Source: Amoebophrya sp. A120 (taxonomy: Eukaryota; Protista; Dinoflagellata). From it: 64,000 nucleotides of DNA. The DNA lies in contig CAJINV010000001.1 in the NCBI GenBank assembly GCA_905178155.1, forward strand, positions 2,780,089-2,844,088. The letters run 5' to 3'. The notes under the pieces are model-generated. The model saw only the letters and a list, made by a program, of their open reading frames with translations, did no database searches and had not been told where the DNA came from. The position numbers were made by a program, and so were the translations under genes. Shown here one piece after another: positions 14,501 through 50,513 of this stretch. The first letter of the stretch is position 1; the number at the start of each line of letters is the position of its first letter.

Positions 14501-15935
14501 CTGCCGCTAGCGCAACAGGTGCAGAAATTAGCTAGTGCTTCCATGCTGGTGGGCCCCCACGGCGCGGTGTATGCGTGGGCCGCATTAAGCGAGTACAGAA
14601 CTCCTCCTTCCTCTTATGTGCATGGCATCTGCAGCGACAGAAGCAACAGCTTCCGCACGACAAATCTACACGCGTAGAGTAGTACTGTTTCGGGTTCTCG
14701 AAGCTTATCATCCAGAAAACACTGCCAGAAGGCACAGCTTGGATTTGGTATTTTGCATGACTTTGCGTAACAGCCATCGGCGGCTGTTTGCAAAAGGAAA
14801 GACAAATCGCGAGGCAAAGTGTTTCGCACTAATTCTGTTTAGCGTGACAAATGAGAGGGAGGGGGAGTGGTGTGCTCTCTTCATACTCGTTGTTGATGCC
14901 GTCGCCGTGCGCGGTTCTGGTCGAGATACTGGGCATGCAGTACAAGGTATGCATGGGAGTGTCATGTTGGGAATTCTGAAAATGTAAAAGTAAATCATTT
15001 TCTTTTGCGATGCATACAATCTCAATCAGTATCCTTTGGAACTGAACCCGCAATTTCGGGCAATTTTTAAGTGGCGCATGACAAATTTTCCAGGCACGGA
15101 ACGCCAATATGTCGTGCTCCTGTTGAGAGAAAAAGCTAAAGCAAGGTTTTTTTGTCATGCCTGCAGCAACCTATCCATGGCGCATGCTGATCCCAGTGAG
15201 TCAGAGTCTTACAATCTGCCTCAGTTGCCTCGAATGCAACACAGACATATGCGTGTGCTGCATTTCGTGCAAGTGCATTACAAGTTGATTTCCAACCTTA
15301 CGCTTCTATACAAGGGCCATCGGAACGTGGCGCTGTTGCGGAACCTGCAGCATGTGAACTACGTGCCAGCCTGGGCACCCAAGTGGGGAACCGATTCCTT
15401 CTCGTATGACACAAGCGAGCTACTATCCACTGCAAGTATGTCTGGGTCTGGAGCGTTATGATGCTAGTAGTACAAACTTGCATGAGTCAGAAACTTACTC
15501 CAGTACTTACGCAGCCACGAATGAAAAGTCGCGTTTTTGCATGCCACAGTGAGGAAGACGGACCGCTCGGGGTTACGTCGCAGTAATGAGAATGACGATG
15601 ATGATACTGATGATGATGACAAAGAGGGAACCCTAGTATCCCCTAAAATGCATCACAGAGTCTAGGGGAGTTGCGATCCGGCTGCATTATATTTGCATAT
15701 TCATATTGCATTTCCATGCAGATGGAGGGCGCAAGCCAATACAGTTACCTTACCATACCGTGCGAGAACATCAATGCAAATCTGGCAATCCTCTTCCAGG
15801 CCCAGACATCTTTGCATTTCATAGCTGCGCACCGAGTACAAAAAGTGGCGCACTTTGTTGCACGAATGCCAGCAAAGCGGCGGACCTCCCAAGCCCGTCC
15901 AGAGCAACGGGGGCAACGACGGGTCCGACCAGTAA
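11559..15935 (+). CDS. Glycosyltransferase family 61 (DUF563)-like protein, multi-exon
   Basis: The spliced C-terminus reads ASMLVGPHGAVYAWAAL|MPSPCAVLVEILGMQYK|GHRNVALLRNLQHVNY...TSEL|RTEYKKW...*, matching the GT61 pattern HGA..n..fm.p...viEi....y..la. The start and upstream exons (11559-13028, possibly earlier) are uncertain. Confidence 0.6.
13861..13992 (+). repeat. In-frame tandem duplication (69-bp and 63-bp units) inside the GT61-like exon
   Basis: ggattctgcaagccggc(a/g)cgtgatacaagcattccagccg... occurs twice and encodes DSASRHVIQAFQP... / DSASRRVIQAFQP... Confidence 0.9.
14587..14894 (+). other. Non-canonical intron of a different type (no TAT...ATA ends)
   Basis: Needed to join ...WAAL to MPSPCAVLVEI. 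It has a short IR (cgagtacagaa / ttcatactcg), a 2-nt repeat TT, and no GT-AG register at this junction. Boundaries are good to about +/-2 nt. Confidence 0.5.
14948..15310. mobile_element. Introner element with degenerate TIRs
   Basis: TAT...ATA ends and a perfect 5-bp TSD CAAGG, which supplies a GT-AG register. Removal gives MQYK|GHRN. Confidence 0.8.
15424..15823. mobile_element. Introner element, family A (400-bp variant)
   Basis: TIR tgcaagtatgtctgggtctgga / tccaggcccagacatctttgca, flanks gctac/gctgc. Removal restores TSEL|RTEYKK. Confidence 0.85.
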
Positions 15936-17221
15936 ATGAAAAAACAGGTCGTGCGCTCGCCGGTAAGATTCAACCACAATCAAACACCGCTACTAGCCGA
16001 ATAAACAAAGCCAGCCGGGTAGACGAAAGATGTTCTAGCTGTTGAAGCTGATGAGAACCGGCTTCGGTGAAGATATTACATATTTGGACCATAACATGTA
16101 CACAAACGTATAGCCATAGTTGTAGAAGCGGCGGGCGCTCCTGTACGTACAACGGTTCTGTGGGATGCTCAAGCACAGGGCGAGAGCTATCTGCGAAGCG
16201 AGGACTTGTTTTAAGAAAAAACTAGAATACAAGAAACGCCTTATTACCATGCTACCGACTGAGCAATCCTTCCCAAGGAATACGTGAGTGAGGAAGGAAG
16301 CAAAATGTAAGGACATGCACATGCACAATTGTAAAATCTGATCAACGTCTACTTCTACTGTCCTCGGCAATATGATCTATCAATTCGGATTCTCCCAGGA
16401 ATATCACTGATTTTAGGTTTCGTTCTTCCATGGAGGTAGAAACAAAAGCCCACTGAAAGCAACGGCTCGTCTACCGAAATTGATTGGGCTGGGCATGGCA
16501 TTTAGGGTAGGATGAAGAGCAAGAAGCAAAAGGATGCTGATGTCGTCCTTTAGTTGAGAAGTATATTTGATTAGCTGAATTATATAAGTTAGTTTAGCGC
16601 CCCTGCAAGGCGCCCGGTAGTACAAAGGCCCAAGTTCTAGTGGGCCTGGCGCAGAGCCCAGGAAAAAAAAGACAGACACGAAAGCGTCGCAGCCAGCCGC
16701 AGATGGGCGCGCCGGCCGTAGCGTAGGGCTCGCGCAACACGTCCGCTCGACGGCGTTCTGGCGTGTCGGCGGAGGGTCTTCCCTACATCCGCCTGTCTGC
16801 GCCAAGCGTTTTTGGAGGCGCTGGTGGTCCAGGCCGCCGAAGTGTCTGCTTCCTCCCTGGGCAGCAGACAAAGCCGATCCCGCGACCACTTGCATCCAGC
16901 GGGTGTTGTATTGCTAGGAAATATTGCAGGATGTTGGCGCACCCTTGGCCTGCGTGCGGCAGCGTGCCCGTTTGTTGTTCTTTTTGCGGACGAATTCCAA
17001 TTCGACAACGACAGCGTGGAGCGAAGTCTTTGGCTGCGTTCGGATAGAATTGCCACGGTTCTTTGGCGACTGGCAGGGTTTGAATCGTCAGACGAGTAAT
17101 ATGGAGCTTCTTCATTGTTTCGTAAACGACTCCCAGTTTGTTTGGCAGTAGCGGAAAAAACAGCTATACTAGAAGCTCACCTTCGCCGCCCACATAGCTC
17201 CTCCAACAAAAAAGCAAAAAA

Positions 17222-19217: not shown

Positions 19218-20038
19218 GCTAGCAAGTCGCGAGGTAGGAGGACAACGGTTTTTGTTCACGCGTAAGAAGTATTTTGTGGGCATTCACAGTGAAGTGCTTG
19301 GGTGTGTTTCAAACTGTTTCTTGAATTGACAAAAAAAGCCCGAGAATAGAAGTCATTCTGTAAACAGTAACGGTTTCTCTGGAACTGGATGTAAAATCGG
19401 CATTATCAGAAGTTTCGAGGTGGAATAAAGAAGACATCGTTGGACAATTTTTGAAGGCCTTTGCAAAAAGGGCAGAAGGAATACGCCAGGTAACGAACAA
19501 TTCATGAAATAAGCTCGTGGCTTGCTGTCTAAGTCTATCGACGAGATGTGGGAGGGCAAAATGACTGCAGAGAACGTTTTCTGCACTTTGTGGCAAAGTT
19601 ATGCATCTGCACTGTTCTTTGTCCTACCAGTTACAGTTTATGCTGTTGGTCTTTGAAAAGTTGGGGAGAAAGAACGAAAAGGGGCCCAGTCGACTCGCGA
19701 AAGAAAAGTATTATTTAAAGTACATGATTCTTTTTGTGGTACGATGCAACCACGGACATCAAAAAGCGAAAAGCAAACCGGTCGTGATACAACATTTTTG
19801 CCGCTTATTCATGAAATTCACACCCCATTTCATTTTGGATTTTGGTTTTGCATTTTTATGTTGCGTAGCGCCTGCGCTTGTTTGAATTGACGTCTTTGTA
19901 CCATACAAACAGTTTATCGCAGCTTTTGGTTTTGCTCCCGCTTCACTATCAAATCCTGGGCCAGATTTCTCTCAAAAATCTTCTTGTTCTACGATAATAA
20001 TTTTTACCAGTGACAGGAAATAAAGCAATACATAAATC

Positions 20039-21660
20039 ATGGCGACGACGTTTCTGTCCTCGTTGTTTCAGACAAAGGACGAGCTGGTTCGGGATCTTGA
20101 CTTTGTCAGTGCGTGTGACGACGAGGTGGAGTCCGATGAACTGAAGGAAAAATTTATCCTATGCAAAAACGTCCCCACACCAGAGTCAAGATGGGGATCT
20201 CGCAACACAAATCTAGAAGCTTTGGGAGTCACGCATGACAAGTTCCTCTCTGCATTGTAGTGCAGTCTAGCAAGTGCAGCTACATCCCAAACCCATCTAC
20301 CCATCCTGTTTACAGCATTACAAATTCCAAAACACGACTAAAAAAGCCTCTCCTGGCGATGCGCATTACAAATGTTCCTGTCATTGCAAATCTGCATGAC
20401 AGCTCTGGTGCGGGGACATTTTTACTCAGGATAAAATTTGCCCGCATCAAGATGCGCATCGAACCCGTGCACCGGCTGGAGGAGCGAGCAACGGCGATGA
20501 AATACATTCAAGAGACGATCTACGACACCAAAAAGTGGCGGAAAGTGTACAACGGGCTTCGGCTACTGGAGAGGGTAAGCATGTACACGACGGTCGCTTC
20601 TACTTTTTCACAAATTATATCTCATTCTCTTTGTTCGCATCGATCATGATAGGGGGACCGGACCCACCAGTGCAGCCATTATTCCTGGTCTACATGATTT
20701 TCACTTTCTTGCAGCAGGCTGCAAATTGTCACGCAGAATACAACTCGCACACGACACGCCTCAGCCAATAACTTACGTGCGCTATTTCGCATAGGTTTCC
20801 GAGTTTTTCCCATTGCCATACACAAAGAATTGTACCTTCAGGTGATGCAAATTCAAATCCTGGCCGAGGAGCAGCGAGAAGGGCGTCACTTCGACGTGGT
20901 CCAGCAATGCAGCTTGCTGATGAATTTTTCGCACGAAGACAGCCGTGTGACGAATCTGGTGCGCCAGCGGGCAAAGCACGTGCGCGAGCGGTGTCTCGAC
21001 TTGCTGAACTTGACGGACACCAGTTCCGCCGCGGCGGGAAATAGTAGTAGTACTGCTGCCGCGGCGGGGGCAAGCACTAGTTCGTCCTCTACTGCGTCAC
21101 CGAGTGCGCAGCCCTGGTCTTCCATGAACAAAAGCAGCAGTGCAGCGTCTCCGGATGCAGGAGCTACTCGGAGCAGCCAAAACGGCTCAACGAACCTGCT
21201 GGACGACGACTTCAACGTGCAACAGTCGAACCCCTCCGCGGCACGGGGCAGCAGTTCTCTGGCAAATGCCAATAACGACCTCCTTGGCGGAGGTGCAGCT
21301 CCCAGTCCGGAAAACAAGTTCGCCCAGTCGGGCGGTCCTGCAGGTTCTTTACAACCCGGCCCAAACCGCGTGTACGCGAATTTTTACCAAAGCGACAAAC
21401 GCGGCGCGGCGCTGCAGAACAGTACTGGGAGTACGATCTGCTACACAAAGCACCGAGAGGACACCAGCAGCGAGGAGGACGACGACGACAAACCGCGCAG
21501 CAGCACCGGCGGCCCGGCCTATCCCCTCGGAATGGTACCGCCGCCCCCAGGAGGGGGAGCAAGCGCCGGATCATTCGCAACCACGGCTAGTAGTGCTGGT
21601 CCTGCTGTTCCCCCACCTCCGAGCAGCGCAACTACCGTTACGGATCTCATCGACTTGTGA
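20039..21660 (+). CDS. ENTH/VHS-like (epsin-like) trafficking adaptor
   Basis: Spliced product ...LKEK|FARIK...KKWRKVYNGLRLLER|VMQI...DSRVTNLVRQRAK resembles the ENTH helices (WRxVYKxLxLL, VRxxAK). The disordered tail has clathrin-box-like NLLDDD, DLL and DLIDL. GT-AG intron 20575-20841. Confidence 0.65.
20155..20433. mobile_element. Introner element, family C
   Basis: TIR tatcctatgcaaaaacgtccccacaccagag / ctctggtgcggggacatttttactcaggata and a perfect TSD AAATT. No GT/GC-AG register for exact excision. Confidence 0.9.
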
Positions 21661-22228
21661 GATGGGCTGTCGGTTTGTACTTTGTGTAGGAACTGTCGAT
21701 TCCTACTTTCTTCGCCAGGGGAGCCCGATGCAGGTCCTCCTCCCTGGTGTCGTGTGTGTGAGTCGACATGCAAGTGCGCTTACGTTGAAGATGATGTCCG
21801 GCTTCACGTAGAGTCACAGATCTGTGTAGGTATCGTAATGACGACACCAGACAAGACACACGTTAAAAGAAGTGTCTATTGCAGCTGGAGCATGTGCATG
21901 TTGCGCAAACAGAAAAGCCGCGAAGGTGGAATAGAAACTGAACAAGAGTCTTGATCTCAGATTGCCGAGGATCCCTCTTTGTTCCATTGTTTTATGTCAT
22001 CTGCGCAAGGTGTTTGACCGAAAATTGGAGGAGGTCGCAAGAGTTTGAGTTGGGCTGTACCTCCGAGGATGTTTCACTAGTTTGTGCGTACAGGCACCGG
22101 CGCCATTTTCTCTTTTCTATGCGTGCCGCACAGCGCAAAACGAGAGTGCCCCGAGACAAGATCTGCCTACCTCGTTCGAAAAGGCGAGGCCTGTTCTTGA
22201 GCCAAACTTAGTCAATTACTTTGCAACC

Positions 22229-25796: not shown

Positions 25797-26613
25797 AACG
25801 GAGTGCGAAAAAACTGCAGCACCCTCATGTTTTATCCATCATGATTCGCGAGCAAAGAATTCTACTTACTTGTACCGGAGCGACTGTACTTGTCTTTTCC
25901 GAATAGATCAAAGACACTTGTTTTCTGCTGAATGACAGGGAGCAAAGAAAGGTTTGATCCGGGATGCTCGGACGCGGACCAGTGTGTTGCAGGTCGTCCT
26001 TGCTGAGCCGCTATTTGCCAATGGCAGTTGTAGTGTTGGCGGTTCTTTCTCGTCTGTTCTGCCTGCAATTGTTTGCAGCTTGTGCGGATAACGAAAGCAC
26101 ATGCCACAACTGTTGTAATGTCAGAGGGAACCAGGGACAGCACAGCGCAGAGCTGCACAGCTGTGGGAAGGGAAGAGGACGAGAGAGATACTGATACAGA
26201 ACTCCACTGAAGATTGACCGTGGGAGCACGGCGGTGCAGATGAGGAAAACTACGAGTGTAAAAAAATATGCACCGGGCAAGCGCGGGAAAAAGTTTTTTT
26301 TATTGCTCTACAAAAAGAAACTGCCTGCCAGCGACGAAAGAAGTAGATCCAAGACCGAAGAGCGCGCTATTAACATGCGCAATATCAGAACAAGAATGAC
26401 CCAACGTTGATATGGATATCTCTTGGTTCTCTCCTGCTCAAAAATACGTTCATCAGTTGGAACAAGCGCGGCCACCAGCAGCACGACGTGAGGACCCGAG
26501 CGTAAACACGGGATCGGCCCCCAGCCTTCCGCCAAGCGATTCAACCTCCCGTAGAGGCGCAACCATCATAAATTGCCTAGCACCGTAAAAAAACCCGGCA
26601 TCGCCACTTCAAG

Positions 26614-29600
26614 ATGGACCTGTTAAACGAAACCGCGCGCATCTATGGCGTTCTCAACTGTTACATTCTCAACTGTTACATGAATTTGTGATGCAAGAAT
26701 GGCAAAAGTGATAGGAGAGATCTTGCGCGTCTTGCATGACAGATTTGGCGCCGATTATCGGCCTGCTTGGCCCTCTGAGAATTTGTCATGCGAAGCAGCT
26801 TGATGGTGTAGATTCTGTAGGCAATTCTGCATGACAAATCATGTAACAGTTGAGAATGTAACGTTTGAGAACGCCATAGCATCTGGGTGGAGAACCACCC
26901 GACACTCGGGTGGTGCGCGGCGCGCGTTGACGGGGTAGATGACGACGGCAACTACATCGCGGTAGACGAAGAGGTATGCATTGAAAAAGTATCGTACTAG
27001 TAAGACTAGCATTACAAATATTTCCAGAAGGAAAAATGAAATTTGTAATGCTGCATGAGCTAAGGAACCAGATTTGTCATGCATAACAGCAATTAAGAGT
27101 GCGATACTTTTGCGCTGCATAACAGGGGCAGCAGTTCAAGGTCCCCCAGGACAAAGCCACGAGCGTCGATCCCTCGTGTCTGAAGGGCGTCCAGGACTTG
27201 CTCACCCTGGGGGATTTCAACGAGGGCTGCCTGCTGCAGAATATCCGGCTGCGGTACTTCGAGGACAAGATCTACACGGGGATCGGCGCGCCCATTCTGG
27301 TGTCGCTGAATCCCTACCAGAAGCTGACGACGCTCTACTCACCCGAAACCATGGCAGAGTACCGCAGACTGTCTTCGGTATCATGCACTTTTTAGTTCTT
27401 GTTACAAGTGTTCTTCGTCATCGTCGTGTTTTTGCCGCTACTGCGGTTGAACATTTTTTCAGGTACAAATGGATTCATTCTACTAACTTAAACTCGTTTT
27501 ACCATATCAATTGTACTCTTTGACGACCTTGTTGAGCATCCTGTTCACAAAAGATGCTGCGTTACTACATAGGTCCGCAAGCAAAACCGCGACCTGAGTG
27601 TGGCCCCGCATCTGTTCAGCGTTGCTTCGGAGTGTTACGACACGATGCTGGAGGAGCGGTTGAATCAGTCCATCATCATCACGGGCGAGTCGGGCGCAGG
27701 CAAAACTGAGGCGACAAAGCGGATTTTGAACTACGTCGCCAACATCCAGACACCAGCGTCCGCAACGGCAACTTCTGCTGGAACCACGGCAGCTTCATCG
27801 CCCGCGGTTGGCTCTTCCGCCTCGTCTTCCTCCACAGGAGGAGGCCCTGCGAGTTCTAGTTCTAAGCGGAGTATCGAAGACCAGGTGTTGAAGAGCAACC
27901 CGATTCTGGAGGCGTTTGGGAATGCCAAAACGGTCCGGAACGACAACAGTTCGCGTTTCGGCAAGTTCATCGAGATTCAGTTCGACGCGCAGGGCAAACT
28001 GCGGACGGCGAACATCCGGAACTACTTGCTGGAAAAGTGCCGTATGAAATGCAAATATGTCTGGGTCTGGATGAGTACAAGGTTTGTCATGCATATTTTC
28101 CATGCGTCGTGACGTGAACGTGATGTCTGTGATGCATGCCTAGCATCACAGATTCTGCGAGAGCTTTCTGATGCTCCTACCGCATGAGAAATGCCGTCTT
28201 TGCGTAGCAACAACTGGACCTCTTATTTTCCTGTTCATGCAAAAATACAGATTTTATGTAGAATCCAATGGCAGCATCACAAGTTGTTGCACCCTTCCAT
28301 ACCCAGACACATTTACATTTGATATGCCGGATCACAGCGCAACAGGCGAACGAGCGGAACTACCACGCCTTTTACTTTCTGCTCGCCGGGGCGCCGGAGA
28401 AACTGTTGGCGCAGCTGCATCTAACGTCCGAATCCGTGCCAGAGGATTTCGACTTCGTCTCCGTCTGCAGCGTCATCGAGGGTGCGGAATTCTCCGACGA
28501 GGAAGAATTTTTGAACGTGCAGGACTGCCTGCACCGGCTGAAGTTCAGCAAGGACGAGATCGAAACGCTGTGGAAGTGCTGCGCGGCGGTTCTGCTGCTG
28601 GGGAACGTGGATTTTCTGGAGACCCCGGTGGACGGCTCGGAGGACAACGTGGAGATTGCGGACCACGAGAGTGTCTGTCCGCCCATCTGCGACTTGCTCG
28701 GGATACAAGTGGACGCGTTGCGCGGGGTGCTGCGGTCGAAGAAGTTTTACGACCCGATCTCCAAGGCGATGTTCACGTCGCCGCTGCGGGTGGAGCAGGC
28801 AAAGCAGGTGAAGTTGTCGATCGCGAGAACGCTCTATTCCCGCATGTTCGACTGGATTGTCTCCCGGATAAACAGCAGCATGCAAGAGGAAAACAAAGCA
28901 CAGGGAACGTCAAATTCTGGCGGTGCAGCGACTCCATCAGGTGGAAATCCAAGCGCCGCGGGCCGCGCGTCCGCCACTGGGAGCAGTTCGTCTACCGGTC
29001 GCGGGGCGGCAGCGAGGCAGGCCGCGCAGGATGCTAGCGGGCACAAGGTCGGGCTGCTGGACATCTACGGGTTCGAAGTGTTTGAATGGAACTCGTTCGA
29101 GCAGCTGTGCATCAATTTTGCGAACGAGAAGCTGCAGCAACACTTCAACAGTCACATGTTCCGCATGGAGCAGAAGCTGTACACGGAGGAAAACATCAAC
29201 TGGAATCACATCACGTGTATGCATTGCAAAACTATCGTACTAGTATAAATCGCATGACAAATAAGTTTTCCAGAAGGAAAAATGGAATTTGTCATGCAGA
29301 TTCAGGTAAGAGAGGAAGACTAGATCTGTAATGCAAGGCTGTCATTTATACGAGTGCGATACTTTTGCTGAGGATAACGTGGCTGGACAACCAGGAAGTA
29401 ATCGACGCACTGGAGAAGAAGCCGAACGTATCAAAAGGAAAAATCCCCCCTCCCCATATCAAAACGGAAATCTGTGATGCAGATTTGTTGTCACAAATAA
29501 GGTTTGTCATGCTACACGGGAAAAGATGCGGAGGCGGACTGTAGTGCTGGGTGGCGTGGGGGAGCCTTGCATCTTCAGCATGATAGGAGGCAGCTGAGAG

Positions 29601-32600
29601 TGGGAAACAGCATGACAAATTGCCTGCAAACGAGACCACGACTGCGGCTCTTGGCCTTCTAGCGTGACAAGTCGATTTGGTACCTCAAATCCTGCATCAC
29701 AGATTTCCATTTCGATATGGGGAGGGGGGATTTTTCCGTTTGATAGAACGGCGTGTTTCCCCACCTGGACAGCACGTGTCTCGGGCCGAACGCCACCGAC
29801 GCCGCGTTTCTCCAGGCGTTGTACACGAAGCCGGCGAAGCCCAACATCATTTACAACCCCTCGAAGCAGAAAACGGACCTGTTCGGGGTCGCGCACTACG
29901 CCGGCGAGGTTTTGTATTCCGTCGACGGGTTTTTGGACAAGAATTATGAGAAACAGACGGACGAAGCGCTGGAAATTCTCCGGGAAAGCAAGAACGACCT
30001 GATAAAGAAGTTCATGGAGTTTTCCAGTTCTGGCACTGCTGGTGGAGCGGATAACTCCTCCTCTTCTGCTGCAACTTCTTCTGCCGGCGCAAGCAGATCC
30101 TCGACCGCGGGGCGCGGATCCGTCGGCATGCGCGGAAGCCGGTCGATGACGAGCGGGGCCCGGGGCAGCGCCAGTGCGACGGACAAAATCAAGGGCCCCC
30201 AGGGGACCGTGTCCAGCACGTTTCGCGAACAGCTGGACGCGCTGGTGGCGGACCTGAACAAAACGCATCCGCGTATCCTGCGTAAAAACGTACCCACACC
30301 ATAGTCAAGATGGGGAATCGGCTAGACAAATCCACAAGTTTTGGCTGTTTAGCATGACAAATTTGGACTCGTATTGTAGTGCTGTTTGAGCTAGCTCAGG
30401 AGCATCACAGATCTAGCATACCATGCTGATTGGAGCATGACAAATTGCAAAACACGACTATAAAATGCTTCTCATGGGGCTCCGCATGAGAAACATTTTC
30501 AGCATGCATGTCCCTATTGATGGGTTTTATCTTTCTCTTCCTCAGGAATGTATGGATATATGTAGAAAAGAGGTAAATTTAAATGAAGAGAAAGATAAAA
30601 AAGAAAAAAGACTGATTGGACTCAGACAAGCTTCTTTGTTTTTCAGTGCCACTTGTTACACCCGGAATACGCTCAAGTGCCAACAGGGCGAGAGCCCTGC
30701 AAGACCGGGCGTCAAAATAAGTCCAGACGGGAAAAACGCCAAAGATACCCGCGCCTTCTGCTTAACTGTGTGAAATATTGTGTCGGCCCGGTTCTGCTCA
30801 GACAGGCTGGATCCCGTAGATCAGATTTCACATGTTAAGTAACGCACACCGGCCTCCTAGCAAAAAACTAATGATGAATTTATATGAGCAAAGTGATGAA
30901 GATAGAGCGCAGCGGCTTACTGCGCAGCGTCGGTTCGTGCACGTGTGTCGCCCTTCGTTCGTTGCTTCCAGGAGCATGATCGCAAATTCGTACGCTCCTC
31001 CTGCTTTGAAAAAAAAAATCCGATCTTCCCGTCTGCCCCCATCTTCCCATGTAGAGTTAGGTCTCTGCCCTTTTATTGCTTCTCTCGTGTAGATGTGTTG
31101 TTGTTTTACCTGACTCGCCTTCTTAGCGCTAGCCCGCGTAGCCCGCGTCCTTGCAGGGGCAGCTGTTTTTTTTCCGCCTTGCCAGCGGGTTTTGTCGCGG
31201 GGAAGAAAGCAATCTGGGTTCAACGGTCCCCGCCCCCCCATCATCGTGGGTTCGACGGCCCCCGCCCCAAAGGAGACCACTTAGAAATATTTTTTTTGTA
31301 GAGTGCAAATTTTCACTGCGATCAACCGTTCACCATCGGCTGAAGCTGCACATGCATCCGGAGTAGTTTTGAAAAATTAACTTTATTGCCCGCGGCTTAC
31401 GGGTTTCGTCTAAAGGTTCTTCGTCAGGGTGCGCGGTTTCTATTATTGGCGTTCGGCTTGGTCGCACCCTATGGCTAGTATCTGAGATCAGAAGACCATT
31501 TATTTCGGGGGACAGTAGCGCGCGAAAAAAGTTCGTCGCGGGGGCACCCCGCATGGTTCGTTTTTATATGCTTTCCGCACCATGCATCGATGGCCGGGGG
31601 TTCGGTCGTGTTTCCCGCTGGGCTTTTCAAACGCGGGTTTGCAAAGCCCGTTTGCATAGGGCGTTCCCAGTATCCGCGTTTACATAGATCCCGGATATCG
31701 CCCCCTATGGGCAACTATCTCCCTAGACAGTGGCTCCTCCCTATCTTTACTACCGTCAGGTGCAGCGGCTTTCTGCACATAGCGCCTAGTCTCGACCCAT
31801 ATCGACCCCCCTTGCTATTCGTCCCACAGCATAGCAACGTCCGCCGCGGCTTACGGCTATAGACGTTAACTATATCGTGGGGATTTTCTATGCGTGTGTC
31901 CGGTCCGAGTTCGAAAAAGGGTTCAGGGGTGACCCCCCTGTATGCATGCGGATTTATGCTTCCGAAGGGTTTAGGGTTTTGATTTGTATGGACCAATGCG
32001 GCGCGCACATCGAGTTTCCTGGCAGTGTCGACCTGCTGTACACGGCGTAACCCCCGGCGGAAATAGACCGGAAAACGCATCTGAAACTGAAACTGAAACT
32101 ATGAGAAAGAGGGGCCTAATCAAAAAAAAAAAAAGATTTGCATTACAAGTATGGGGTGGGTACGTTTTTACTCAGGATACCGCGGTACATCCGCTGCATC
32201 AAGCCCAACGCGAACAAGGCTATGACCTGCTCAAACGTTACAATCTCAAATCGGTTACCATAGAATCTGGAATTTGTGTTGCATGATGGGCATGACAGAC
32301 TCGCACAGCGTTCCACCTTTTGCAATACAAATTTCGACAGAATGTAGTGGGCTTTCGAGACCCGGAACTTGTCATGCGCAACCCTATGAGAGTTGGCTGG
32401 ATCATGCTCATCATGCAAGACAAATCTCAGATTCTATTGTAACGCTTGAGATTGTAACGCCTGAGCGGGTTATAAAGGCGGCGCACGACTTTGACTCGAT
32501 CGACGTGTTGCGGCAGTTGCGGTGCGCGGGAATGCTGGAAGCAATACGGATTCGGCGCGCGGGGTACAGTGTGCGTCGACCGTTTCGGGAGTTTCTCATG

Positions 32601-40619: not shown

Positions 40620-40739
40620 GAAATAAAGCCTGCGGGTACTATTGCTGAAATAAAAAGCGTTCATCGAAAAAGTAGAAGTCGCTTTGCAAAAAAGTAAAGG
40701 AATTTGAGTCGGACAAGAGTTCGAACTTTTTGAAATTTC

Positions 40740-41375
40740 GTCAATCGTCCAAGACGAGAAGGAGAATCATGAAGAACACATTTTTAAACAAGAAACATGG
40801 CGAAGATCGGATGGAAAACAAAATTTAGGTTCGAACAAAACCACAGAATCTCAGAGCAACCATCATACATCACGACGAAAACTAATTTCTCAAAAATTTC
40901 ACTTACCATCCGATGGATAACATTCATCAGGCAATTCGAATCGACACATGATGACCATGACCGAAAAAATCTTCGAATGGATCCATCATAATGATTTCAT
41001 TTTCGGATGGAAATTTTTCTTCATCATGATAATTTCTTATATAATTGATGTCATCATCCATTTCTTTCTTTCTTGTCATGGATGAGATAATATTCTAAGA
41101 TGGATCAATTTCATTCTCATCATCAGAATAGGAAAAAAATGATGAAGAATATCATCTTATTGTATTTCGAGATGTCATTCTTTCATCCATACATCCATAT
41201 TTGTGTCTTTCATCTTGATTCAATTCTGGATCTCATATTATTCATTCATCCATAGGATATATTTCTGTCAAAAATTTCTGAATCTTTGAAAATTCAAAAT
41301 AGATGATATTCATCGAAGAAATTTTGTATTGATTTCGAGAATGCAAGATCTATAACTCCTATTGCTGAGCTGCGG
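40740..41375. other. AT-rich, ATC/GAT-rich left flank of the strand-switch complex
   Basis: Abrupt compositional change after the last + gene, with many catc/gatg/gatc words and no credible ORF. Confidence 0.6.
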
Positions 41376-41428
41376 AAGTTAAAATTTTGCGCCGGGAAAG
41401 AAAATCGCCCACGTCGATTTTTTTTTTG

Positions 41429-42353
41429 CATCAACGGGATCGGCCCCCAGTGTCATCAAAAGCAAAAAAATCATGATCCCCGAAAAAAAATTAAAAAAAA
41501 GCGGTGGCGCCCTGTTTTTCCTGCGCCCGGGGTAGTCTGGGGCGTTTTCTTCGTTCGTCCCTTGGCCCGAAGGATCCCGGAGGTCGGCGTCTTCCTTGGG
41601 AGTTCTCCGGTCGTTGGTGTTTGTTTTTTTATGCGACAAAAAATCTCAAAAATCCGGCGCCTGAAAAAACCAATGGGATTTTGCCTGTATGAGAAAAAAA
41701 GCCGCGAATTAATCTTGCGACAAAAAATTTCGGGCAGTTTTCTCTTGGTTCAAATTCCCATTGGTTTTTACAGGGCCGGTTTTTATGCGACAAAAAATCC
41801 GGCTTCGATATGCCATGGGGGTGTCGACCCCCTGTCGACCCCCTGTCGCAAAATTAATTTAATTTTGCCCGCTTCTCATGTTTTGCGTGTGATTTTGGGT
41901 GGTCTGGTGTTTTTGCGTCTCGGGGTCGGCGTCTTCAACACACCCAATTTGGATTTTTTGTCGCATCGGTGTCGCAAAATTAATTATTTTTTGTCGCAAA
42001 ATTAATTCCCGACTCTTTTTTCTTTATGGGGCTGGCAGGATATTTAGGCCGGGTCCACCCCGCAGCAGTGTGTGGACTCCAGGGCACACGCCCCCACAGG
42101 GCTCATTGGTGTGGAGTTCTAGCGGGGCGTGGCAGGCCATCCCATCTTTCTTGTGTTTGCGAATTCGTGTCCTGATTGCCTGACCACATTGAAAGGGGTG
42201 CTTGGGTGTGGGATTTCCCTTGTTGCTTTCGCTTCCAGCTTTCCCTGCCTTGTTGGATGGTTCAAATTTTTTTCAAAAAATTTTTTTTGGAAAAAGAGCA
42301 CGGGAGTTATGATTTTTTTTCCGCCGAGCCCACTGGGGCCCGATCCCGTTGAT
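41429..42353. repeat. Foldback (MITE-like) module with nested inverted repeats
   Basis: Outer IR atcaacgggatcgg(c/g)ccccagtg...aaaaaaatcat at 41429-41481 vs 42301-42353. Inner IR 41660-41681 vs 41752-41774. gcgacaaaaaat / tgtcgcaaaatt motifs occur in opposite orientations. Confidence 0.6.
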
Positions 42354-42431
42354 TTGCAATTTGCGAACTTTCAAAAGCTCGCGCGATTTGGGAAGTCGCC
42401 CAACGCCCAACAACGCCCAACAACGGCCAAC

Positions 42432-42707
42432 GAAATACTTTGCAATCCCCACGGCCGACGGCCAACGAAATACTTTGCAATCCCCGAAATATTTTGCAAC
42501 AATATTTTGCAATCCCCGAAATGTTTTGCAATCCCCGTAATATTTTGCAATCCCCGAAATATTTTGCAATCCCCGAAATATTTTGCAATCCCCGAAATAT
42601 TTTGCAATCCCCGAAATATTTTGCAATCCCCAAAATATTTTACAATCCCCAAAATATTTTATTGCAATGCCCAAAATATTTTGCAATCCCCAAAATATTT
42701 CGCAATC
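42432..42707 (+). repeat. 19-bp minisatellite (ttttgcaatccccgaaata), about 14 copies
   Basis: Directly visible head-to-tail repeats without spacers. Confidence 0.95.
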
Positions 42708-43534
42708 GGGAAGCACAAGGAAGCAGGGGAAAAGCGGAAAGCAGGGGGAAAGCGGGAAGCAGGGGAAAAGCGGGAAGCACGGGGAAAGTGGGAAGCGTGG
42801 GGGAAGCGGGAAGCATGCACGGGGAAGGCGTGCGGCAAGCACGGGGAAAGCGGGGCGCAAGGGGAAAACAAGACGCACGGGGAAAGCGGGAAACATCGGC
42901 CCGCGGGGAAAGCCGCGCCCTAGCACCAGGCGAACAGCTGCCCACCACCCTCCCCCGGCGCCCTCCCTCATCTGTTCACGAGAACACTGGCAGAGGGCGC
43001 CGCCGTCCGCCGCCTCTTGGGGGCAAGCACAGGAAAAGCGACCGACCCGAGAGCACGGGGAAAGCGGGCGGGAAGCACGGGGAAGGCGGGAAACACGAGG
43101 AAAGCGGGGGGCACGGGGAAAATGAGCACGGGGAAAGCGTGAAGCACGGGGAAAGCGGGAAACATCGGCCCACGGGGAAAGCCGCGCCCTAGCGCCAGGC
43201 GAACAGCTGCCCACCCAGCACCCTCCCCCGGCGCCCTCCCTCTGTTCACGAGAACACTGGCAGACGGCGCCGCCGTCCGCCGCCTCTTGGGGGCAAGCAC
43301 GGGAAAAGCGACCGACCCGAGAGCACGGGGAAAGCGGGCGGGAAGCACGGGGAAGGCGGGGAACACGAGGAAAGCAGGGAGCACGGGGAAAATGAGAAGC
43401 ACGGGGGAAGCGGGAAACGCGAGGAAAGCGGGGAGCATGGGGGAACCACGGGGAAAATGAAAAGCACGGGGAAAGCGGGGGGCACGGGGAAAACGGGAAA
43501 CACGGGGAAAGCGGGAAGCACGGGGAAAGCGGGA
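42708..43534 (+). repeat. G-rich satellite: ~18-bp gcacggggaaagcgggaa units plus a ~270-bp higher-order unit
   Basis: The block aaacatcggccc...tgttcacgagaacactggcag...ctcttgggggcaagcac recurs at ~42891 and ~43160. Confidence 0.9.
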
Positions 43535-43852
43535 NCGGAACGAGATCCGGAGGCAGAGCAACCGGGCGCCCTGTCACTCGCCCCAAGTAACTTGCAAGGC
43601 CAGGCAGGTTATGATGGGCCCTACTGATAAGAAATTTCGTCTATTTTTCTCCGATTTTTTTGAAATTTTTTTTTTTGAAAATTTTTTGGAATTTTTCGTT
43701 TAGATTTTCACTGAAAAGTTTTTTGCTATACAGGGTGTGAGGGCCATTTCTATACCGATTTCGCCTGCTCAGCTCGATTTTCAAGTCGAAAATCGACTAG
43801 CAGGCTGCTTCGACCTGTTTTAGGTCCTCTTTGTTCTATTCTGGGGCTGTTA

Positions 43853-43957
43853 GGGCGCTTGGCCCAACGGTTAAGGCCCCTAGGTCGTCGTCGACACCCG
43901 ATTTCGATCACTTTTATCATAGGTTCGAATCCCGATGGTATCGTCGATTCGAACCTA
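43853..43957 (+). ncRNA. tRNA-derived Pol III-type unit 1
   Basis: A-box TGGCCCAACGG (43860) plus TTAAGGC and B-box GGTTCGAATCC (43922). No anticodon arm. Confidence 0.5.
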
Positions 43958-44076
43958 GGTGATCGCTTTCGATTTCACATCATCGATCGCGAATTCCCAT
44001 GCTGTGGTCACCGCACAATGCGAAACAGCACGGAATCCGCCTCGATCGATGAGAGGATGCGAACTCGACGCGCGTG

Positions 44077-44192
44077 ATCGTCTTCTCTCGCTCGGCCTAT
44101 TGGCCGAGCGGTTAAGGCCCCCGGTTGTTTGTCCCAGTCCCTTTTCACCCTTCATCGACCTCGGGTTCGATTCCCGAAGACGGTGATTTTTT
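44077..44192 (+). ncRNA. tRNA-derived Pol III-type unit 2 (most complete)
   Basis: Acceptor-like stem ATCGTCT/AGACGGT, A-box TGGCCGAGCGG (44101), T-arm TCGGG-TTCGATT-CCCGA and a T6 terminator at 44187-44192. The anticodon arm is replaced by a stem with a pyrimidine-rich loop. Confidence 0.6.
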
Positions 44193-44327
44193 GCGCAGTG
44201 TAGTGCGGTCAAGAAAAGCACTAAGAAACCGCGGAGCCACAGCGTCGTGGTGCGACAGCTCTATGCTCCGTGGTCGGCGCAAAAAAAGCTATCGTGTTTG
44301 ATACGATGCTTCCGGCCTGTTCTTACT

Positions 44328-44420
44328 CGCTCGGCCATTTGGCCGAGCGGTAAAGGCACCTAGTTGTTACTTCGAGTCCCTTTTCACCCTTCATGGGATG
44401 ACGAGGTAGAAGTAACAATT
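44328..44420 (+). ncRNA. tRNA-derived unit 3 (A-box, no B-box)
   Basis: TGGCCGAGCGGTAAAGGC, and shares the 20-mer agtcccttttcacccttcat with unit 2. Confidence 0.4.
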
Positions 44421-45230
44421 GTCACCGCGATCACCATATCAAACACGACGGGGAGAACCGGAAAAGTAGGAGGGGAGAAGCGTGTTCTTTTTCTATTTGA
44501 TCACTGTGGTCGAATAGTAAAAGAAACAACACACGACCCGCGGCTGTTGCTGCTATGTGAATACTAGGCTTTTTTCCTCGGCCATACCGCCGAGCGGTGT
44601 CTGCCTTTCCTCCGTGATCGCAAACACTTTTTCCGATCTGCCAGGCGACACACAGATCGGCACTCGGCCGCACATTGACAGCAGCGGCTGTCGTAAAGGT
44701 TGGGACTCGTAACCTTGCGATGCGAAAATTTGTCATGCAAAAACTTCTGTTTTTGCATGACAAATATTAGATCGCAGGTTGCAGCGATCCCAACCCGATC
44801 GCGGAAGCCGCTGCATAGTGCGGCTGCGAGGGTTTCGGAGTTGCGGAAGGGTTCGTAAGTACTCCGCTTTACAGCCCTGTATAGCAGAAAAGTTTTCAAG
44901 GAAAAGACGAAGACCGGGCGGAAGAGCACATCAAGGTAAGAAAATAAGATGTCGGCGTGATGATTTTGAAGCCCGGAAGGTCAGCGGAGCACCGGCGGAG
45001 ATGATTATGAAAAAAACGTGACTAGTAGCTATGCGGTCTGTATTGTGTAGCTCTATCGTGCTACGTGTTTGTTTTTTTTCGATAGTTGCTACGTTTTTTT
45101 ACCACGATGCGGTTGTTTTTTGTTCTGAAAAAATGAGAGGTTTTTGTTTATTTCAGGAGCGGATGGCGGAGCGACGGTTGTTTTCAAGTTCTGAAATAGC
45201 AGTGCCTCTACCGGTGAAGACGAAGATCGT

Positions 45231-46289
45231 CAGGCGGACGACCCGGGGCGGGGCAACGCGCTAAACGACCGCTATATTCTGGCTAAATTGAAAAGCCGGA
45301 AGCGCACGGACCCAATGCCCGCGGGCGCGCTTCCGGGCGTGGAACCAAAAGAAGGCGCGCGCCCTTGCGATCGCGGGCTCCGGCCCATCCCTCCGTAGGC
45401 GGCGGAAGCGAACGGGCCGGGCCATCCGGGGCCCGCACTGCGGCCGCGGCACGGCTTCGGAGCGTCCCCGGCCCGCGCGCGACGGGCCCGACCCCGCGGG
45501 CCCGGTATTGCAAATGCCGCGTGGCCGGCCAGCCTCACGCGCAGGCCTTTTCGGGAAACGCCGGAGATATCTAGCGGGCCTCCGGCTAAATGCTCTGCTA
45601 AATTGCCTCCGGCCTCGCTAATTCGCGGCCGCTTTTCGGCTCGGGAGGCCAAAAAAAATCCATCTAAATATCCATCTAAGTATCCATCTAAGTGCTCTGC
45701 TAAATTGGGTCCCCCGGGAGGGGGCCGGAGGGCCCGAGGGGGCCCCGGGGCCAAAATCCTTCCCGTTTTCCCAGTGTCCAACATTTAGCCGGATACTTAG
45801 CCGGATACTTAGCCAGAATTTAGCTGGAATTTAGCGGAGCACTTAGCTGGATACTTAGCTGAATTTCTTTTGGGAATTAGCTCCAATTTAGCCGGATTTT
45901 AGCCGGATCCTGGCCGACGATTTCCGCCAGCATTTACCCTGTCGCCCAGGCGGCGGCAGGATGAATGCTGGAAGAAATATCGGCCAAGTGGGCCGGCCTC
46001 TTGGGAATTTAAAAACCCCAGCGCAAAAACCTTGCGAGTCTTTAAAACTCAAAACGGCCAAGGGCGGCACCCCGGGGCGAGGCGCTGCCGAAGCACTGGC
46101 GCCGCGGGCCGCGCGCGCAGCTGCGCCAAACACCCGCCGCCCGGCTGCTCCACGCATGGGGGGAAGGGTGCGCTGGCGCGCCCGAGCAGCCCGGCCCCAA
46201 GGAAGAAAAAACCTGCGCGGGCTGCGCAAAAATTTAGCCAGGTCATAGCCGGAATATAGCCGGAATCCCCGCCCCGGGCCGTCCGCCTG
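45231..46289. mobile_element. Non-autonomous hAT element (MITE), 1059 bp
   Basis: 23-bp TIR CAGGCGGACG(A/G)CCCGGGGCGGGG (22/23 identity), 8-bp TSD AAGATCGT/AAGATCGG, and internal inverted arrays of ctaa / ttag motifs. Confidence 0.9.
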
Positions 46290-46545
46290 AAGATCGGGGA
46301 CCAATCGAAGAAACAACTATCATGATATTTGTTTTGCAGAGCCAGGACCTAAATCTAGTGTCTACATGAAACTAATATAACTAAAAACATACATAATGAA
46401 GTAACTAAAACACACAATCCCACTAGTATAACTACAGGGCCCGTTTTTTTTTGGAATGTAGATAGTGCGCCATAAAGTCATACTATTCTTTCCACACCTA
46501 CACCGCGGATCATCATAGTAGACAAAAAGCAAACCCACTCCTTCT

Positions 46546-48646
46546 GTGGTCATCTTCTATTGTTTCGGCAGCGACGAGAAGATGAACAAAGAGGAGAAGA
46601 AGGCCGAGGCGGAACAAGAAAAGAACGAGGAATGCAAAAAATTCTTCACAGCAAAAGCCTACTTGGCACCACGCAAGTTGTGGAAGCTGTGCTACCTGTT
46701 ATGCGAGACGGCTTTCGAGTACGCACGCGAGTACTTCGCGAACCCGAAACTCACCTTGGTCCACTACCGGGTGGAGATCGACGGAACCACGACGCAGAGC
46801 ATGCTGTTTGAAAACAGTGTGAGGGGGAGGATTAAGATCTTCGCGCATGTGATGGCGTCGATCGTCGCGATTACCTTCTGCTGCGGAAGCCTGATGAACA
46901 TCGGGTCGGTGTTTGTGCCAACGCACACCGTGCTATATCCTTCGTCGCAGAACTTCGGGGCGAAAGTAAAGGGACAAAAGAGCTGCTTTCGCGGTTGGAG
47001 TGAAAGAAGCATGGGAGGTGGCGGACCAGGTGCTGACGTTTCACAACCCGGAAATTTTTTTCGGGCGTTTCGGGCAGCAGTGCGTGCAAATTTGGAGTCC
47101 AGTGACGGACTCGGGTGGAAGCACAATAAATACGCTCTTCTTCATCGGCGGAATTTTTATGATGGGCAAGCACCTGGCCAATGTGGTGCTGTGGACACAG
47201 AGGTGTAAGGTGCACCAAGCAGCACTAGTAACCCGCCAAATAGCCGAGATGTATCTCGGGATGCTCAATCTGGATCCGAAAGGATGGCAGAAGAGACTGC
47301 GGCTGCAAGTACTGTTTTTTTTGATTTTTGTAATGCATTTCAGTACTATGATCGCATGCTTATTTGCATGACAAATGTGCACTTCAAATCAAAAGCCAAC
47401 TACTTCTAATCTACAGGTGCACAGTGTGAAACTGCTGTCCGAAAAAATACACAACTCGCTCGACGGCGTTGCTCGGTGGATTGCGCCATGGGACAAGAGC
47501 GAACCGATGGCGAAAGACCAAGCCTTTAACAACTTCTTGGACAGACGCGAGATAAACTACAAGAAGAAAAAGTTCCTCCGCGGATGCTCGGTGAAGCAGC
47601 GGATGTTGATAGTGCCGAAGGACGGAAGAACCGCTGCGCTGCGTGGATTACATAGTTTGTATCGCGGCTGGCGGGCGCCAGTCTGGACCCGCTGGCTCAC
47701 AGTGCGGCAAGCCCTCGGACAAATGCTGTTGTGCTGCAGTATGTTTTTGGCGAGGATCTTCTACGGACTAGGAGAGCGGGTCAGTTTTGGGGCGGAAAAG
47801 ATACTGGAGCACGGGTTCAAGCTGGACATGTCGAAGGAAAGCGGTATAGCATAAATCTGTAATGCAAATTCTTAGAAATGCAAACGCTTTTACATGTGTA
47901 AAGACACTTCGTGGCAGCATGATTTGTAATGCAATCTGTAAGCCAGTATGTGATTAAAAAAGTGCACCACCATGCAAAATAAATCCAATTATCTCCAGGC
48001 ACACAGTTCATTTTTCTCATCGTCTCGCGGTTTCTGCACATGATTCTGAAGCCGATTGAGCATTATAATGCTGCAATGCTCAAAAACGACCTTCACGAAC
48101 GCACCCGCACTAGTTTGAGGAGCCGCTTCTTGGAGGATCTGCAGGAGGTTTATTTATATCTGTCCGACCTGGATGCGGTTTACGACGACATCGCCTATCT
48201 GATGTGCGGAATCGGAATCGGCGAGGTGATATTCGACGACGCACAAAAAGACTTAGTATTTCTTTATACTTTTTGCAAAATTTGTCATGCATAATTCGCG
48301 TCGGAACAATGAACGTTACATCATGTGCATATATAAACTCACTCAGATCGAGCTTGCACGGATTTCCGCCCAGCAGATGTTGTTCATCAGCCGAGTTATT
48401 TTGTGGCACCGGGATGGCAAACGAGACCTGCGCGAAGAGTGGATCCAAAAGGCAAAAGCAAACCTCGAAGCGGAAATGCAGAACTTGAAAGAAATGGACT
48501 TTGCGGTGTACGTCCAAGAAGACCCTGGCAGCATCTCCCTGCACAGCGTTCAGCGGTGGATGATGAATCAACCGGAGGAGATTCGCAAGCAGCAGATGCA
48601 GAAACTGACTGAGTACTTGCAGGTCGTTAATCGCAGTAGCAAAAAC
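46546..48646 (+). CDS. hAT-superfamily DDE transposase, intron-containing, truncated by an assembly gap and possibly inactive
   Basis: Ordered motifs EIDGTT (D1), VTDSGG (D2), RCKVHQAAL (CxxH) and WTRWLT (RW). GT-AG introns 47309-47416, 47844-47998 and 48256-48346 keep the frame. A frame change at ~46967-47000 is either a 34-nt atypical intron or a frameshift. The catalytic E was not seen before the gap. Confidence 0.75.
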
Positions 48647-48746
48647 NNNNNNNNNNNNNNNNNNNNNNNNNNNNNNNNNNNNNNNNNNNNNNNNNNNNNN
48701 NNNNNNNNNNNNNNNNNNNNNNNNNNNNNNNNNNNNNNNNNNNNNN
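48647..48746. other. Assembly gap (100 N)
   Basis: Run of N. The true distance and contiguity are unknown. Confidence 1.
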
Positions 48747-48748
48747 TT

Positions 48749-50456: not shown

Positions 50457-50513
50457 CTTAGGGTTTAGGGTGATTTCTAGGGCCATGCGGGGCTTAGGGC
50501 TTAGGGTTTAGGG
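50457..50513 (+). repeat. Interstitial telomere-like repeats (T/C)TTAGGG
   Basis: cttagggtttaggg...cttagggcttagggtttaggg, five near-perfect units plus one degenerate unit. Confidence 0.6.

What the first reader, a model, noticed from the sequence alone, without database searches (positions are those of the whole stretch)
14948..48346. Shared motif GCATNACARAT in both orientations across unrelated introns
Seen: GCATGACAAAT or ATTTGTCATGC occurs at 15076, 26781, 26829, 27072, 29252, 29287, 29610, 30352, 30435, 47366 and 48280, with many one-base variants (gcattacaaat, gcatcacagat). It is present in most introner families, in the ordinary GT-AG introns of the transposase, and as a perfect 17-bp hairpin at 44728-44765. 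I did not notice it in exons. Inference: both orientations suggest a dsDNA-binding site (transposase subterminal site or chromatin protein) or pairing arms that fold the intron. Its presence in TIR-less introns suggests those are decayed introners.
Basis: partly seen in the sequence, partly recalled or inferred. Interest (0 to 1): 0.72.

Follow-up and report, generated by a model that had tools for sequence, protein, structure and literature searches.

The report
Shared binding motif of Amoebophrya introners
Five otherwise dissimilar families of transposon-like introns in what is likely the plankton parasite Amoebophrya all carry one 11-base motif in both orientations near their ends, absent from exons and ordinary introns, which likely marks where the still-unidentified enzyme that moves these elements grips the DNA.

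Summary
The motif is real: GCATNACARAT occurs 26 times against 0.27 expected. Nineteen copies lie in TAT...ATA, 5-bp-duplication introners (all five families), one in a weak-repeat element of that build, four in three predicted introns of a frameshifted DDE-like gene, two in a 170-bp foldback; none in 33 kb of exons, 14 kb of intergenic DNA or 17 host GT-AG introns. So it marks mobile elements, not introns in general. The outermost copy lies 36-60 bp from all 20 ends scored; same-direction pairs 30-33 bp apart recur. Family B has one orientation only, so pairing arms are not the general role. Best reading (0.55): a subterminal binding site for the introner mobiliser, as in hAT elements; no binding protein was shown. 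'Decayed introner' holds for 14948 and probably 13021, not for the transposase-gene introns. The introners are published (Farhat 2021); I did not find the motif in the texts searched. This scan noted it before on other DNA of this genome (e1-10628542, e1-10628275, e1-10626161).

The parts
1851..2123 (+). Family A introner (TAT...ATA, duplication 4/5), 3 sites at up to 2 mismatches
3627..3895 (+). Family A introner (duplication 4/5), 4 sites
13021..13374 (+). Probable decayed introner: TAT...ATA, duplication 3/5, similar to family E outside the motif (z 8.4), 2 sites at 2 mismatches
14569..14867 (+). Predicted GT-AG intron of a glycosyltransferase-61-like gene, starts G-TAT, no ATA end or duplication, 3 sites (two at 1 mismatch); origin open
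14948..15310 (+). Weak-repeat introner: TAT...ATA with perfect CAAGG duplication that supplies GT and AG; exact motif at 15076, 4 sites in all
15424..15823 (+). Family A-type introner (duplication 4/5) with no site at up to 2 mismatches: the exception
20155..20433 (+). Family B introner, 5 sites, all on +
26644..26878 (+). Family C introner in the myosin gene, sites at 26684(-), 26734(+), 26781(-), 26829(+)
26975..27121 (+). Family D introner, sites 27009(+), 27041(-), 27072(-)
28043..28324 (+). Family A introner, 5 sites
29218..29376 (+). Family D introner, sites 29252(+), 29287(-), 29324(-); no sense-strand copy near its 3' end
29429..29745 (+). Family E introner, 5 sites
30274..32179 (+). 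Family B introner, 6 sites all on +, carrying a motif-free poly(A)-ended insert at 30508-32133
32221..32474 (+). Family C introner, 5 sites; absent from an RNA-like contig that joins the upstream exon to 32475
44660..44835 (.). Imperfect foldback with the motif pair (44728 -, 44755 +) as a perfect 17-bp central stem; no TAT...ATA ends seen; lies in a pile of repeats
46582..48646 (+). Frameshifted gene (break near 47002, ends at an assembly gap) for a protein with D...D...CxxH...TRW order shared with Amoebophrya A25 and AT5 proteins; transposase-like by motif order only
47309..47416 (+). Predicted GT-AG intron A of that gene, sites 47326(-, 2 mismatches) and 47366(+, exact); AT5 gene models lose similarity at the same codon
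47844..47998 (+). Predicted GT-AG intron B, sites 47855(-) and 47922(-)
48256..48346 (+). Predicted GT-AG intron C, exact site 48280(-)

Best explanation
The motif GCATNACARAT is a repeated internal signature of the TAT...ATA introner elements, present in all five families here in either orientation, and is likely the subterminal DNA site bound by the protein that mobilises them. Shown: the motif, its confinement to mobile elements, its place 36-60 bp from element ends, recurring same-direction pairs 30-33 bp apart. Inferred: one multimeric transposase, or a small related set, would grip the TAT-N7-AAAA tips with its catalytic sites and the motif array with its DNA-binding domains, as hAT transposases do; any sequence holding both could then be copied around, which would explain families alike in tips and motif but unlike elsewhere. 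Motif-bearing GT-AG introns would be elements whose duplication happens to supply GT and AG (14948, 26975) or remnants. The copies in the introns of the transposase-like gene are not explained by this; self-regulation or old insertions are guesses.
For: Enrichment and confinement: 19 copies in 2,895 bp of introner against 0.035 in shuffles, 0 in exons, intergenic DNA and host GT-AG introns. GCATGACA is the commonest 8-mer shared by all five families once 30 bp of each end are trimmed (16 copies), while with the motif masked cross-family similarity among the five is a single pair at z 7.2 against z 13-71 within most families. Outermost site centre 36-60 bp from 20 of 20 ends in the 10 elements that have sites. 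10 of 33 neighbouring gaps are 30-33 bp and all 10 are same-direction, against 11 of 23 other gaps (Fisher p 0.005, copies not independent); with one copy per family, p for the fixed 30-33 window is at most 0.025 in 24 of 24 combinations. Sites are kept as copies diverge: 106/128 columns identical against 313/485 elsewhere when sites are defined on a third copy. A copy pair sits in a foldback that is not a known intron. Three other inverted-repeat elements in the window each carry their own repeated motif in both orientations (no shuffle control). Elements are repeated elsewhere: DNA-run depth 14,785-81,734 in the highest introner bins against about 43-59 in unique bins. hAT precedent: subterminal repeats bound by BED domains (PMC10368747, passages); hAT5 makes 5-bp duplications (PMC12730594, passage).
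Against: No binding protein is identified. The nearby transposase-like gene has no Pfam match, no solved relative and only low-confidence models (pLDDT 40 and 45); its element ends were not found, so it cannot be tied to TAT...ATA elements. With the spacing window chosen freely, only 14 of 24 one-per-family combinations reach p 0.05 or less. Helical phasing from the ends is not significant once families are collapsed (p about 0.36). Element 15424 has no site at up to 2 mismatches. Exact copies survive in 14948, whose terminal repeats match poorly, and in introns of the transposase-like gene that look old, which fits selection after insertion better than a role in transposition only. Sites lean to the sense strand (29 of 44, p 0.049, not independent). 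Farhat et al. argue against general transposase-mediated mobilisation because they found two putative transposases in A25 and none in A120 (PMC7789003, passage of section 16).
Confidence: 0.55

Rival explanations
1. The motif is bound on DNA by a host protein that marks these elements in chromatin and would help the spliceosome, which lacks a detected U1, find non-canonical introns during transcription; elements that carry it are tolerated in exons.
For: Same DNA geometry as the best reading. Exact copies persist in the weak-repeat element 14948 and in GT-AG introns of the transposase-like gene. U1 was not detected in A25 or A120 (PMC7789003, passage). Non-canonical introns need it and 17 host GT-AG introns lack it.
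Against: The GT-AG introns that carry it do not need a rescue signal. A copy pair lies in a foldback outside any known intron. Element 15424 interrupts a reading frame yet has no clear site. No candidate protein.
Confidence: 0.2
2. The motif is read on RNA, as a branch-point-like site (GCA-TNAC matches the yUnAy pattern, recalled consensus) or by an RNA-binding splicing factor; antisense copies exist because the elements are inverted repeats that can insert either way round.
For: A sense copy lies 36-56 nt from the right end in 8 of 10 elements with sites; the variable fifth position falls where the branch-point consensus varies; sense copies outnumber antisense 29 to 15.
Against: Both family D copies have no sense copy of the consensus near the 3' end, and 29218 has no AG acceptor to fall back on. 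Four of five sites in the transposase-gene introns are antisense. Host GT-AG introns lack it. Same-direction pairs and left-end copies are unexplained. The U2 alignment of Farhat et al. is a figure I could not see.
Confidence: 0.1
3. Opposite copies act as pairing arms that fold the intron RNA and bring its ends together.
For: In families A, C, D and E opposite copies do pair in the folding ensemble (probabilities mostly 0.6-1.0); perfect stem at 44728.
Against: Family B has only + copies and no motif-motif pairing (0.0 to 0.18); none in the three decayed elements or the three transposase-gene introns. Pairing needs complementarity, not one sequence shared across families. The recurring 30-33-bp pairs are all same-direction.
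Confidence: 0.07
4. The motif is a relic of a common ancestor of all families, multiplied by internal duplication, with no present function.
For: Families A, B, D and E share the TAT-N7-AAAA tip, so they are related at some depth.
Against: Sites are better kept than their surroundings; nothing else in the interiors is shared across families; number, order and direction of sites differ by family while distance to the ends is similar.
Confidence: 0.08

Closest known systems
Introner elements of Amoebophrya sp. A120 (Farhat et al. 2021, PMC7789003; Gozashti et al. 2025, PMC12130899)
   Same: TAT start, run of As about ten bases in, short direct repeats, non-GT-AG ends, many families, 150-400 bp. 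The elements here fit that description.
   Different: The passages, sections 11 and 12 and supplement text that I read describe terminal and direct repeats only, no internal motif shared across families. In the rows of Gozashti's table that I read (file 8, parts 15-16) most A120 families are 'TIR DNA, unknown'.
Subterminal repeats of hAT transposons (Hermes, Ac, Tol2; PMC10368747) and hAT5 with 5-bp duplications (PMC12730594)
   Same: Short motif repeated just inside the terminal repeats, in more than one orientation; 5-bp duplication as in hAT5; a D...D...CxxH...W protein in the window.
   Different: The motif is 11 bp against 4-6 bp, is spread through the whole small element and is shared across families; no BED domain or hAT profile match was found; binding is untested.
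Subterminal tandem repeats of Mutator-like elements (Muta1; PMC5225508)
   Same: 9-15-bp repeats inside the ends, inherited by non-autonomous derivatives with unrelated interiors; CxxH and W shared with hAT.
   Different: MULE repeats are tandem with 3-4-bp spacers inside long terminal repeats and duplications are 8-9 bp; here sites are dispersed and duplications 5 bp.
Spliceosomal branch point yUnAy (consensus recalled, not from a call)
   Same: TNAC core with a free second position; a sense copy 36-56 nt from many 3' ends.
   Different: Both orientations, many copies, absent from host GT-AG introns, missing at the 3' end of family D.

Membership tests
Amoebophrya A120 introner elements | Terminal inverted repeats starting TAT, with a run of As about ten bases in | tested here: met
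   11 elements with TAT...ATA and 17-23 of 24 matching; As at that place in families A, B, D, E, not C (PMC7789003 section 11)
Amoebophrya A120 introner elements | Direct repeat of 3-5 nt at the boundaries | tested here: met
   5/5 in 8 of 13 elements, 4/5 in 4, 3/5 in 1
Amoebophrya A120 introner elements | Repeated in the genome | tested here: met
   2-4 copies per family in the window for A-D; DNA-run depth hundreds of times the unique level in introner bins (summed contig depth, not a copy number)
Amoebophrya A120 introner elements | Removed from mRNA | tested here: met
   32221-32474 is missing from an RNA-like contig (the run's RNA status is the tool's guess); removing element plus 5 nt gives an open myosin frame
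hAT subterminal repeat system | Short motif repeated near both ends | tested here: met
   Outermost site 36-60 bp from 20 of 20 ends
hAT subterminal repeat system | Motif bound by the transposase (BED domain) | not testable with these tools
   Needs a binding assay; no BED match in the window gene or its relatives
hAT subterminal repeat system | Autonomous partner with the same ends and motif | tested here: inconclusive
   Ends of the element around 46582-48646 not found; region is a nested pile with a gap; no whole genome held; metagenome scan gave one chance hit
hAT/MULE-type DDE transposase (gene 46582-48646) | D...D, CxxH and conserved W in order | tested here: met
   IDG/LDG, TDSGGS, RCxxHQ and WTRWL kept between window, AT5 and A25 proteins; CxxH and W shared by hAT and MULE per PMC5225508 (passage). 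Third catalytic residue not placed.
hAT/MULE-type DDE transposase (gene 46582-48646) | Profile or fold match to a known transposase | tested here: inconclusive
   No Pfam or PDB sequence match; models too poor to test
Decayed introner (three transposase-gene introns) | Remnant TAT...ATA ends, 5-bp duplication or family similarity | tested here: not met
   No ATA end; duplication 3/5, 2/5, 0/5 and end match 3-7 of 20, within the range of host introns; one marginal similarity, z 5.2, to B30274
Decayed introner (14948-15310) | Remnant TAT...ATA ends and 5-bp duplication | tested here: met
   TAT...ATA, CAAGG/CAAGG; terminal similarity weak (z 2.7)
Branch point | Sense copy near every 3' splice site | tested here: not met
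   Missing in both family D copies, 15424, two transposase-gene introns and 17 host introns at up to 1 mismatch

The most novel reading that the evidence does not exclude
The motif is an intron licence tag: a DNA code, first a transposase site, now kept by the host and read by a chromatin-bound protein that tells a U1-less spliceosome where a non-GT-AG intron lies. It would be why tens of thousands of transposon copies can sit in exons, and the diverged DDE-like protein family found only in Amoebophrya would be the mobiliser that was reported missing.
Probability: 0.15. Interest if true: 0.85.

Novelty: new variant of a known kind. Interest (0 to 1): 0.5.

Why it matters
How Amoebophrya introners move and how they are spliced without GT-AG or a detected U1 are both left open in the papers read. 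One motif shared by all families turns nearly 2,000 reported families into one system and gives a bait: a pull-down names either the missing transposase or a host factor that recognises non-canonical introns. It also gives a marker for finding old introner-derived introns that now read GT-AG. The elements are published and subterminal repeats are a familiar transposon feature, so the surprise is moderate.

Tried and rejected
No whole genome is held, so no genome-wide count. No listed holder run is on record as RNA. Two raw RNA runs barely mapped (2 and 114 reads). The RNA-like contigs of X1 and X3 do not cover 43772-49765, so the transposase-gene introns and the foldback could not be checked; this blank is not evidence of silence. 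In one search the DNA run crowded the RNA joints out of the table. A pairwise conservation test (motif 141/165 against 390/579) was dropped: defining sites on one of the two copies inflates identity about that much; the third-copy test replaced it, and its p is overstated because columns are reused. Core against wobble positions: 22/152 against 15/57, p 0.07, not significant. Helical phasing from the ends: pooled p about 0.003, collapsed by family about 0.36. The apicomplexan TGCATGCA box (recalled) has 0 copies in introners. ARAGORN found no tRNA; Rfam gave three below-threshold miRNA-like hairpin hits. Protein searches: exon 47417-47842 none; A25 stretch none; Atlas no usable hit; folds uninformative. 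Metagenome scan: one hit, L001, from a short coincidental peptide in an unrelated ORF. Viral contigs: one inverted pair, L002, with no element around it. My first exon model of the transposase-like gene (intron from 47203) was wrong; the AT5 relative moved it to 47309. The literature search for the motif string listed 15 of 346 papers, none on dinoflagellates.
Full report
Observation. All eleven coordinates hold the exact 11-mer, and the pair at 44728/44755 brings the total to 13, eight on + and five on -. The stem at 44728-44765 is a perfect 17 bp.

Setting. The window holds 11 elements with TAT...ATA ends and terminal repeats, most flanked by a 5-bp duplication. Removing each with five more bases opens the reading frames, for example of a myosin. 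An RNA-like contig lacks the 32221 element, and DNA-run depth shows the elements are repeated many times elsewhere. This fits the introner elements of Amoebrophrya A120 as described by Farhat et al. (PMC7789003; I read the abstract, passages, sections 11 and 12 and supplement passages). The organism is inferred from that fit and from protein relatives found only in Amoebophrya AT5 and A25. No whole genome was available, so all counts are for this window. With the motif masked the elements fall into five families, A to E; cross-family similarity among them is one pair at z 7.2. Families A, B, D and E share the tip TAT-N7-AAAA, so 'unrelated' means unlike in the interior.

Where the motif is. 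On my annotation, whose exons are mostly predicted from frames, the 26 matches divide as 19 in TIR introners (2,895 bp; shuffle mean 0.035), 1 in the element at 14948, 4 in three introns of the transposase-like gene and 2 in the foldback. There are none in 31,549 bp of host exons, 1,711 bp of transposase-like exons, 14,183 bp of intergenic/UTR DNA, the 1,626-bp nested insert, or 17 host GT-AG introns. Four of those 17 are shown by contig joints. At two mismatches the host introns have 4 hits against 1.37 expected (p about 0.05), the decayed class 9 against 0.53, the transposase-gene introns 5 against 0.43. Without any seed, GCATGACA is the commonest 8-mer held by all five families. Ten of 11 introners carry sites; 15424 does not. 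But it is a mark of mobile elements, not of introns as such.

Geometry. The outermost site is centred 36-60 bp from 20 of 20 ends in the ten elements with sites. Ten of 33 neighbouring gaps are 30-33 bp, about three helical turns, and all ten are same-direction pairs, against 11 of 23 other gaps. Taking one copy per family, a fixed 30-33 window (a spacing that note e1-10626161 reported on other DNA) gives p at most 0.025 in 24 of 24 combinations; with the window chosen freely, 14 of 24 reach 0.05. Phasing from the ends, also claimed in that note, did not survive collapsing by family. Sites are better kept than their surroundings in family A: 106/128 against 313/485 columns when defined on a third copy (p overstated). 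I dropped a pairwise version of this test as biased.

Pairing arms. In folding, opposite copies pair in families A, C, D and E, as expected of inverted repeats. Family B has five and six copies, all on +, with no pairing between them, and neither the decayed elements nor the transposase-gene introns pair their copies. Pairing can be a side effect but not the general role.

RNA signal. GCA-TNAC resembles a branch point (recalled consensus), and 8 of 10 elements have a sense copy 36-56 nt from the right end. Family D has none there, four of five sites in the transposase-gene introns are antisense, and host introns lack it. The sense lean is weak (29 of 44, p 0.049; 12 of 19, p 0.36). I could not see the published U2 alignment, which is a figure.

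Decayed introners. 14948-15310 has TAT...ATA and a perfect CAAGG duplication that supplies GT and AG, so this GT-AG intron is an introner by build; DNA depth in its bin is about five times the unique level. 13021-13374 has TAT...ATA, a 3/5 duplication and similarity to family E. 14569-14867 has sites and a G-TAT start only, and GTAT starts 6 of the 17 host introns too. The three transposase-gene introns have no ATA end and duplication and end-match scores within the range of host introns. Both AT5 gene models lose similarity at the codon of intron 47309, which hints, by inference, that this intron is old.

The transposase-like gene. It has a frameshift near 47002 and ends at a gap. Its only relatives are two AT5 proteins and one A25 protein. 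They share, in order, two aspartate motifs, CxxH and WTRWL; CxxH and a conserved W are common to hAT and MULE transposases (PMC5225508, passage). There is no Pfam, PDB or Atlas match and both models are poor. Its element ends were not found. It is a candidate mobiliser and no more.

The hairpin. It is the centre of an imperfect foldback of about 170 bp (z -11; alignment) in a pile of inverted-repeat elements between about 41.3 and 50.9 kb. I saw no TAT...ATA ends. Three neighbours carry their own repeated motifs in both orientations (TGCGACAAA, ATTTAGC/AGCCGGA, AATTAGA, no shuffle control), so 'terminal repeats plus an internal motif array' is a common build here.

Mechanism. The best fit is a subterminal binding site for the mobiliser (0.55). 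In hAT elements, short subterminal repeats are bound by BED domains of a multimeric transposase and are needed well beyond the terminal repeats (PMC10368747, passages); hAT5 makes 5-bp duplications (PMC12730594, passage). Shown here: distribution, geometry, conservation. Inferred: protein binding, the binder's identity, any role in transposition. The main rival is a host DNA-binding protein that tags non-canonical introns (0.2), favoured by exact copies in weak-repeat and old-looking introns. Farhat et al. doubted general transposase mobilisation for lack of a transposase in A120.

Novelty. The elements are known. I found no internal shared motif in the parts of PMC7789003, PMC12130899 (passages; 14 supplement files searched for the string, 0 hits; file 8 parts 15-16 read), PMC12005148 (passages) or PMC11282704 (passages) that I saw. 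Supplementary figures of Farhat et al. and Roy et al. 2023 (seen only as a reference) were not read and may bear on this. Earlier notes of this scan report the motif on other DNA of the same genome; they are unchecked leads, not independent support. What this window adds is the negative control of host introns, the one-orientation family, the split verdict on decayed introners and a candidate DDE-like family. New variant of a known kind; interest 0.5.

Noticed in passing
window 30508-32133: A 1,626-bp insert ending in poly(A) sits inside a family B introner, six bases before its last motif copy; contigs of X1 and X5 show copies without it. Looks like a retroposed piece; the 1.9-kb element must still be removed from the myosin message.
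   Followed up: partly
window 41300-50858: Nested pile of inverted-repeat elements (41430-42353, 43705-44905, 45225-46295, 48747-49764), each of three with its own repeated internal motif; contigs show other copies ending at 50858 and a form skipping 43533-49928.
   Followed up: partly
window 43727-44883: Element with TATACAGGG...CCCTGTATA ends and several repeats that resemble tRNA A and B boxes by eye; ARAGORN and Rfam call nothing there.
   Followed up: partly
window 46582-48646: Diverged DDE-like protein family found only in three Amoebophrya strains, with no Pfam match; could be among the transposases reported missing from A120.
   Followed up: yes
window 30303-30359: 114 raw RNA reads of run X9, which maps to no exon here, match this piece of family B at 90-99 percent: a family B relative in another strain or species under the same label.
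   Followed up: no
13 TAT...ATA elements across the window: Cutting one base before TAT and four after ATA gives GT in 8 of 13 donors but AG in only 2 of 13 acceptors; the cut position itself was not tested.
   Followed up: partly
families A, B, D: Three A copies, both B copies and both D copies lie the same way round relative to transcription; small numbers, but it hints at an orientation rule for splicing.
   Followed up: no
window 26509-26522 and 41435-41448: The word CGGGATCGGCCCC from the end of the 41430 element recurs just upstream of the myosin start.
   Followed up: no
window 50460-50512 and 31966-31980: A few TTTAGGG-like telomere words inside repeat elements.
   Followed up: no
window 55365-63500 (-): A single 2,712-codon open frame with no introner, against the + orientation of the genes upstream.
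   Followed up: no
window 5185-5204: One near-exact motif copy beside a second TGTCATG in intergenic/UTR DNA, with no element seen around it.
   Followed up: partly
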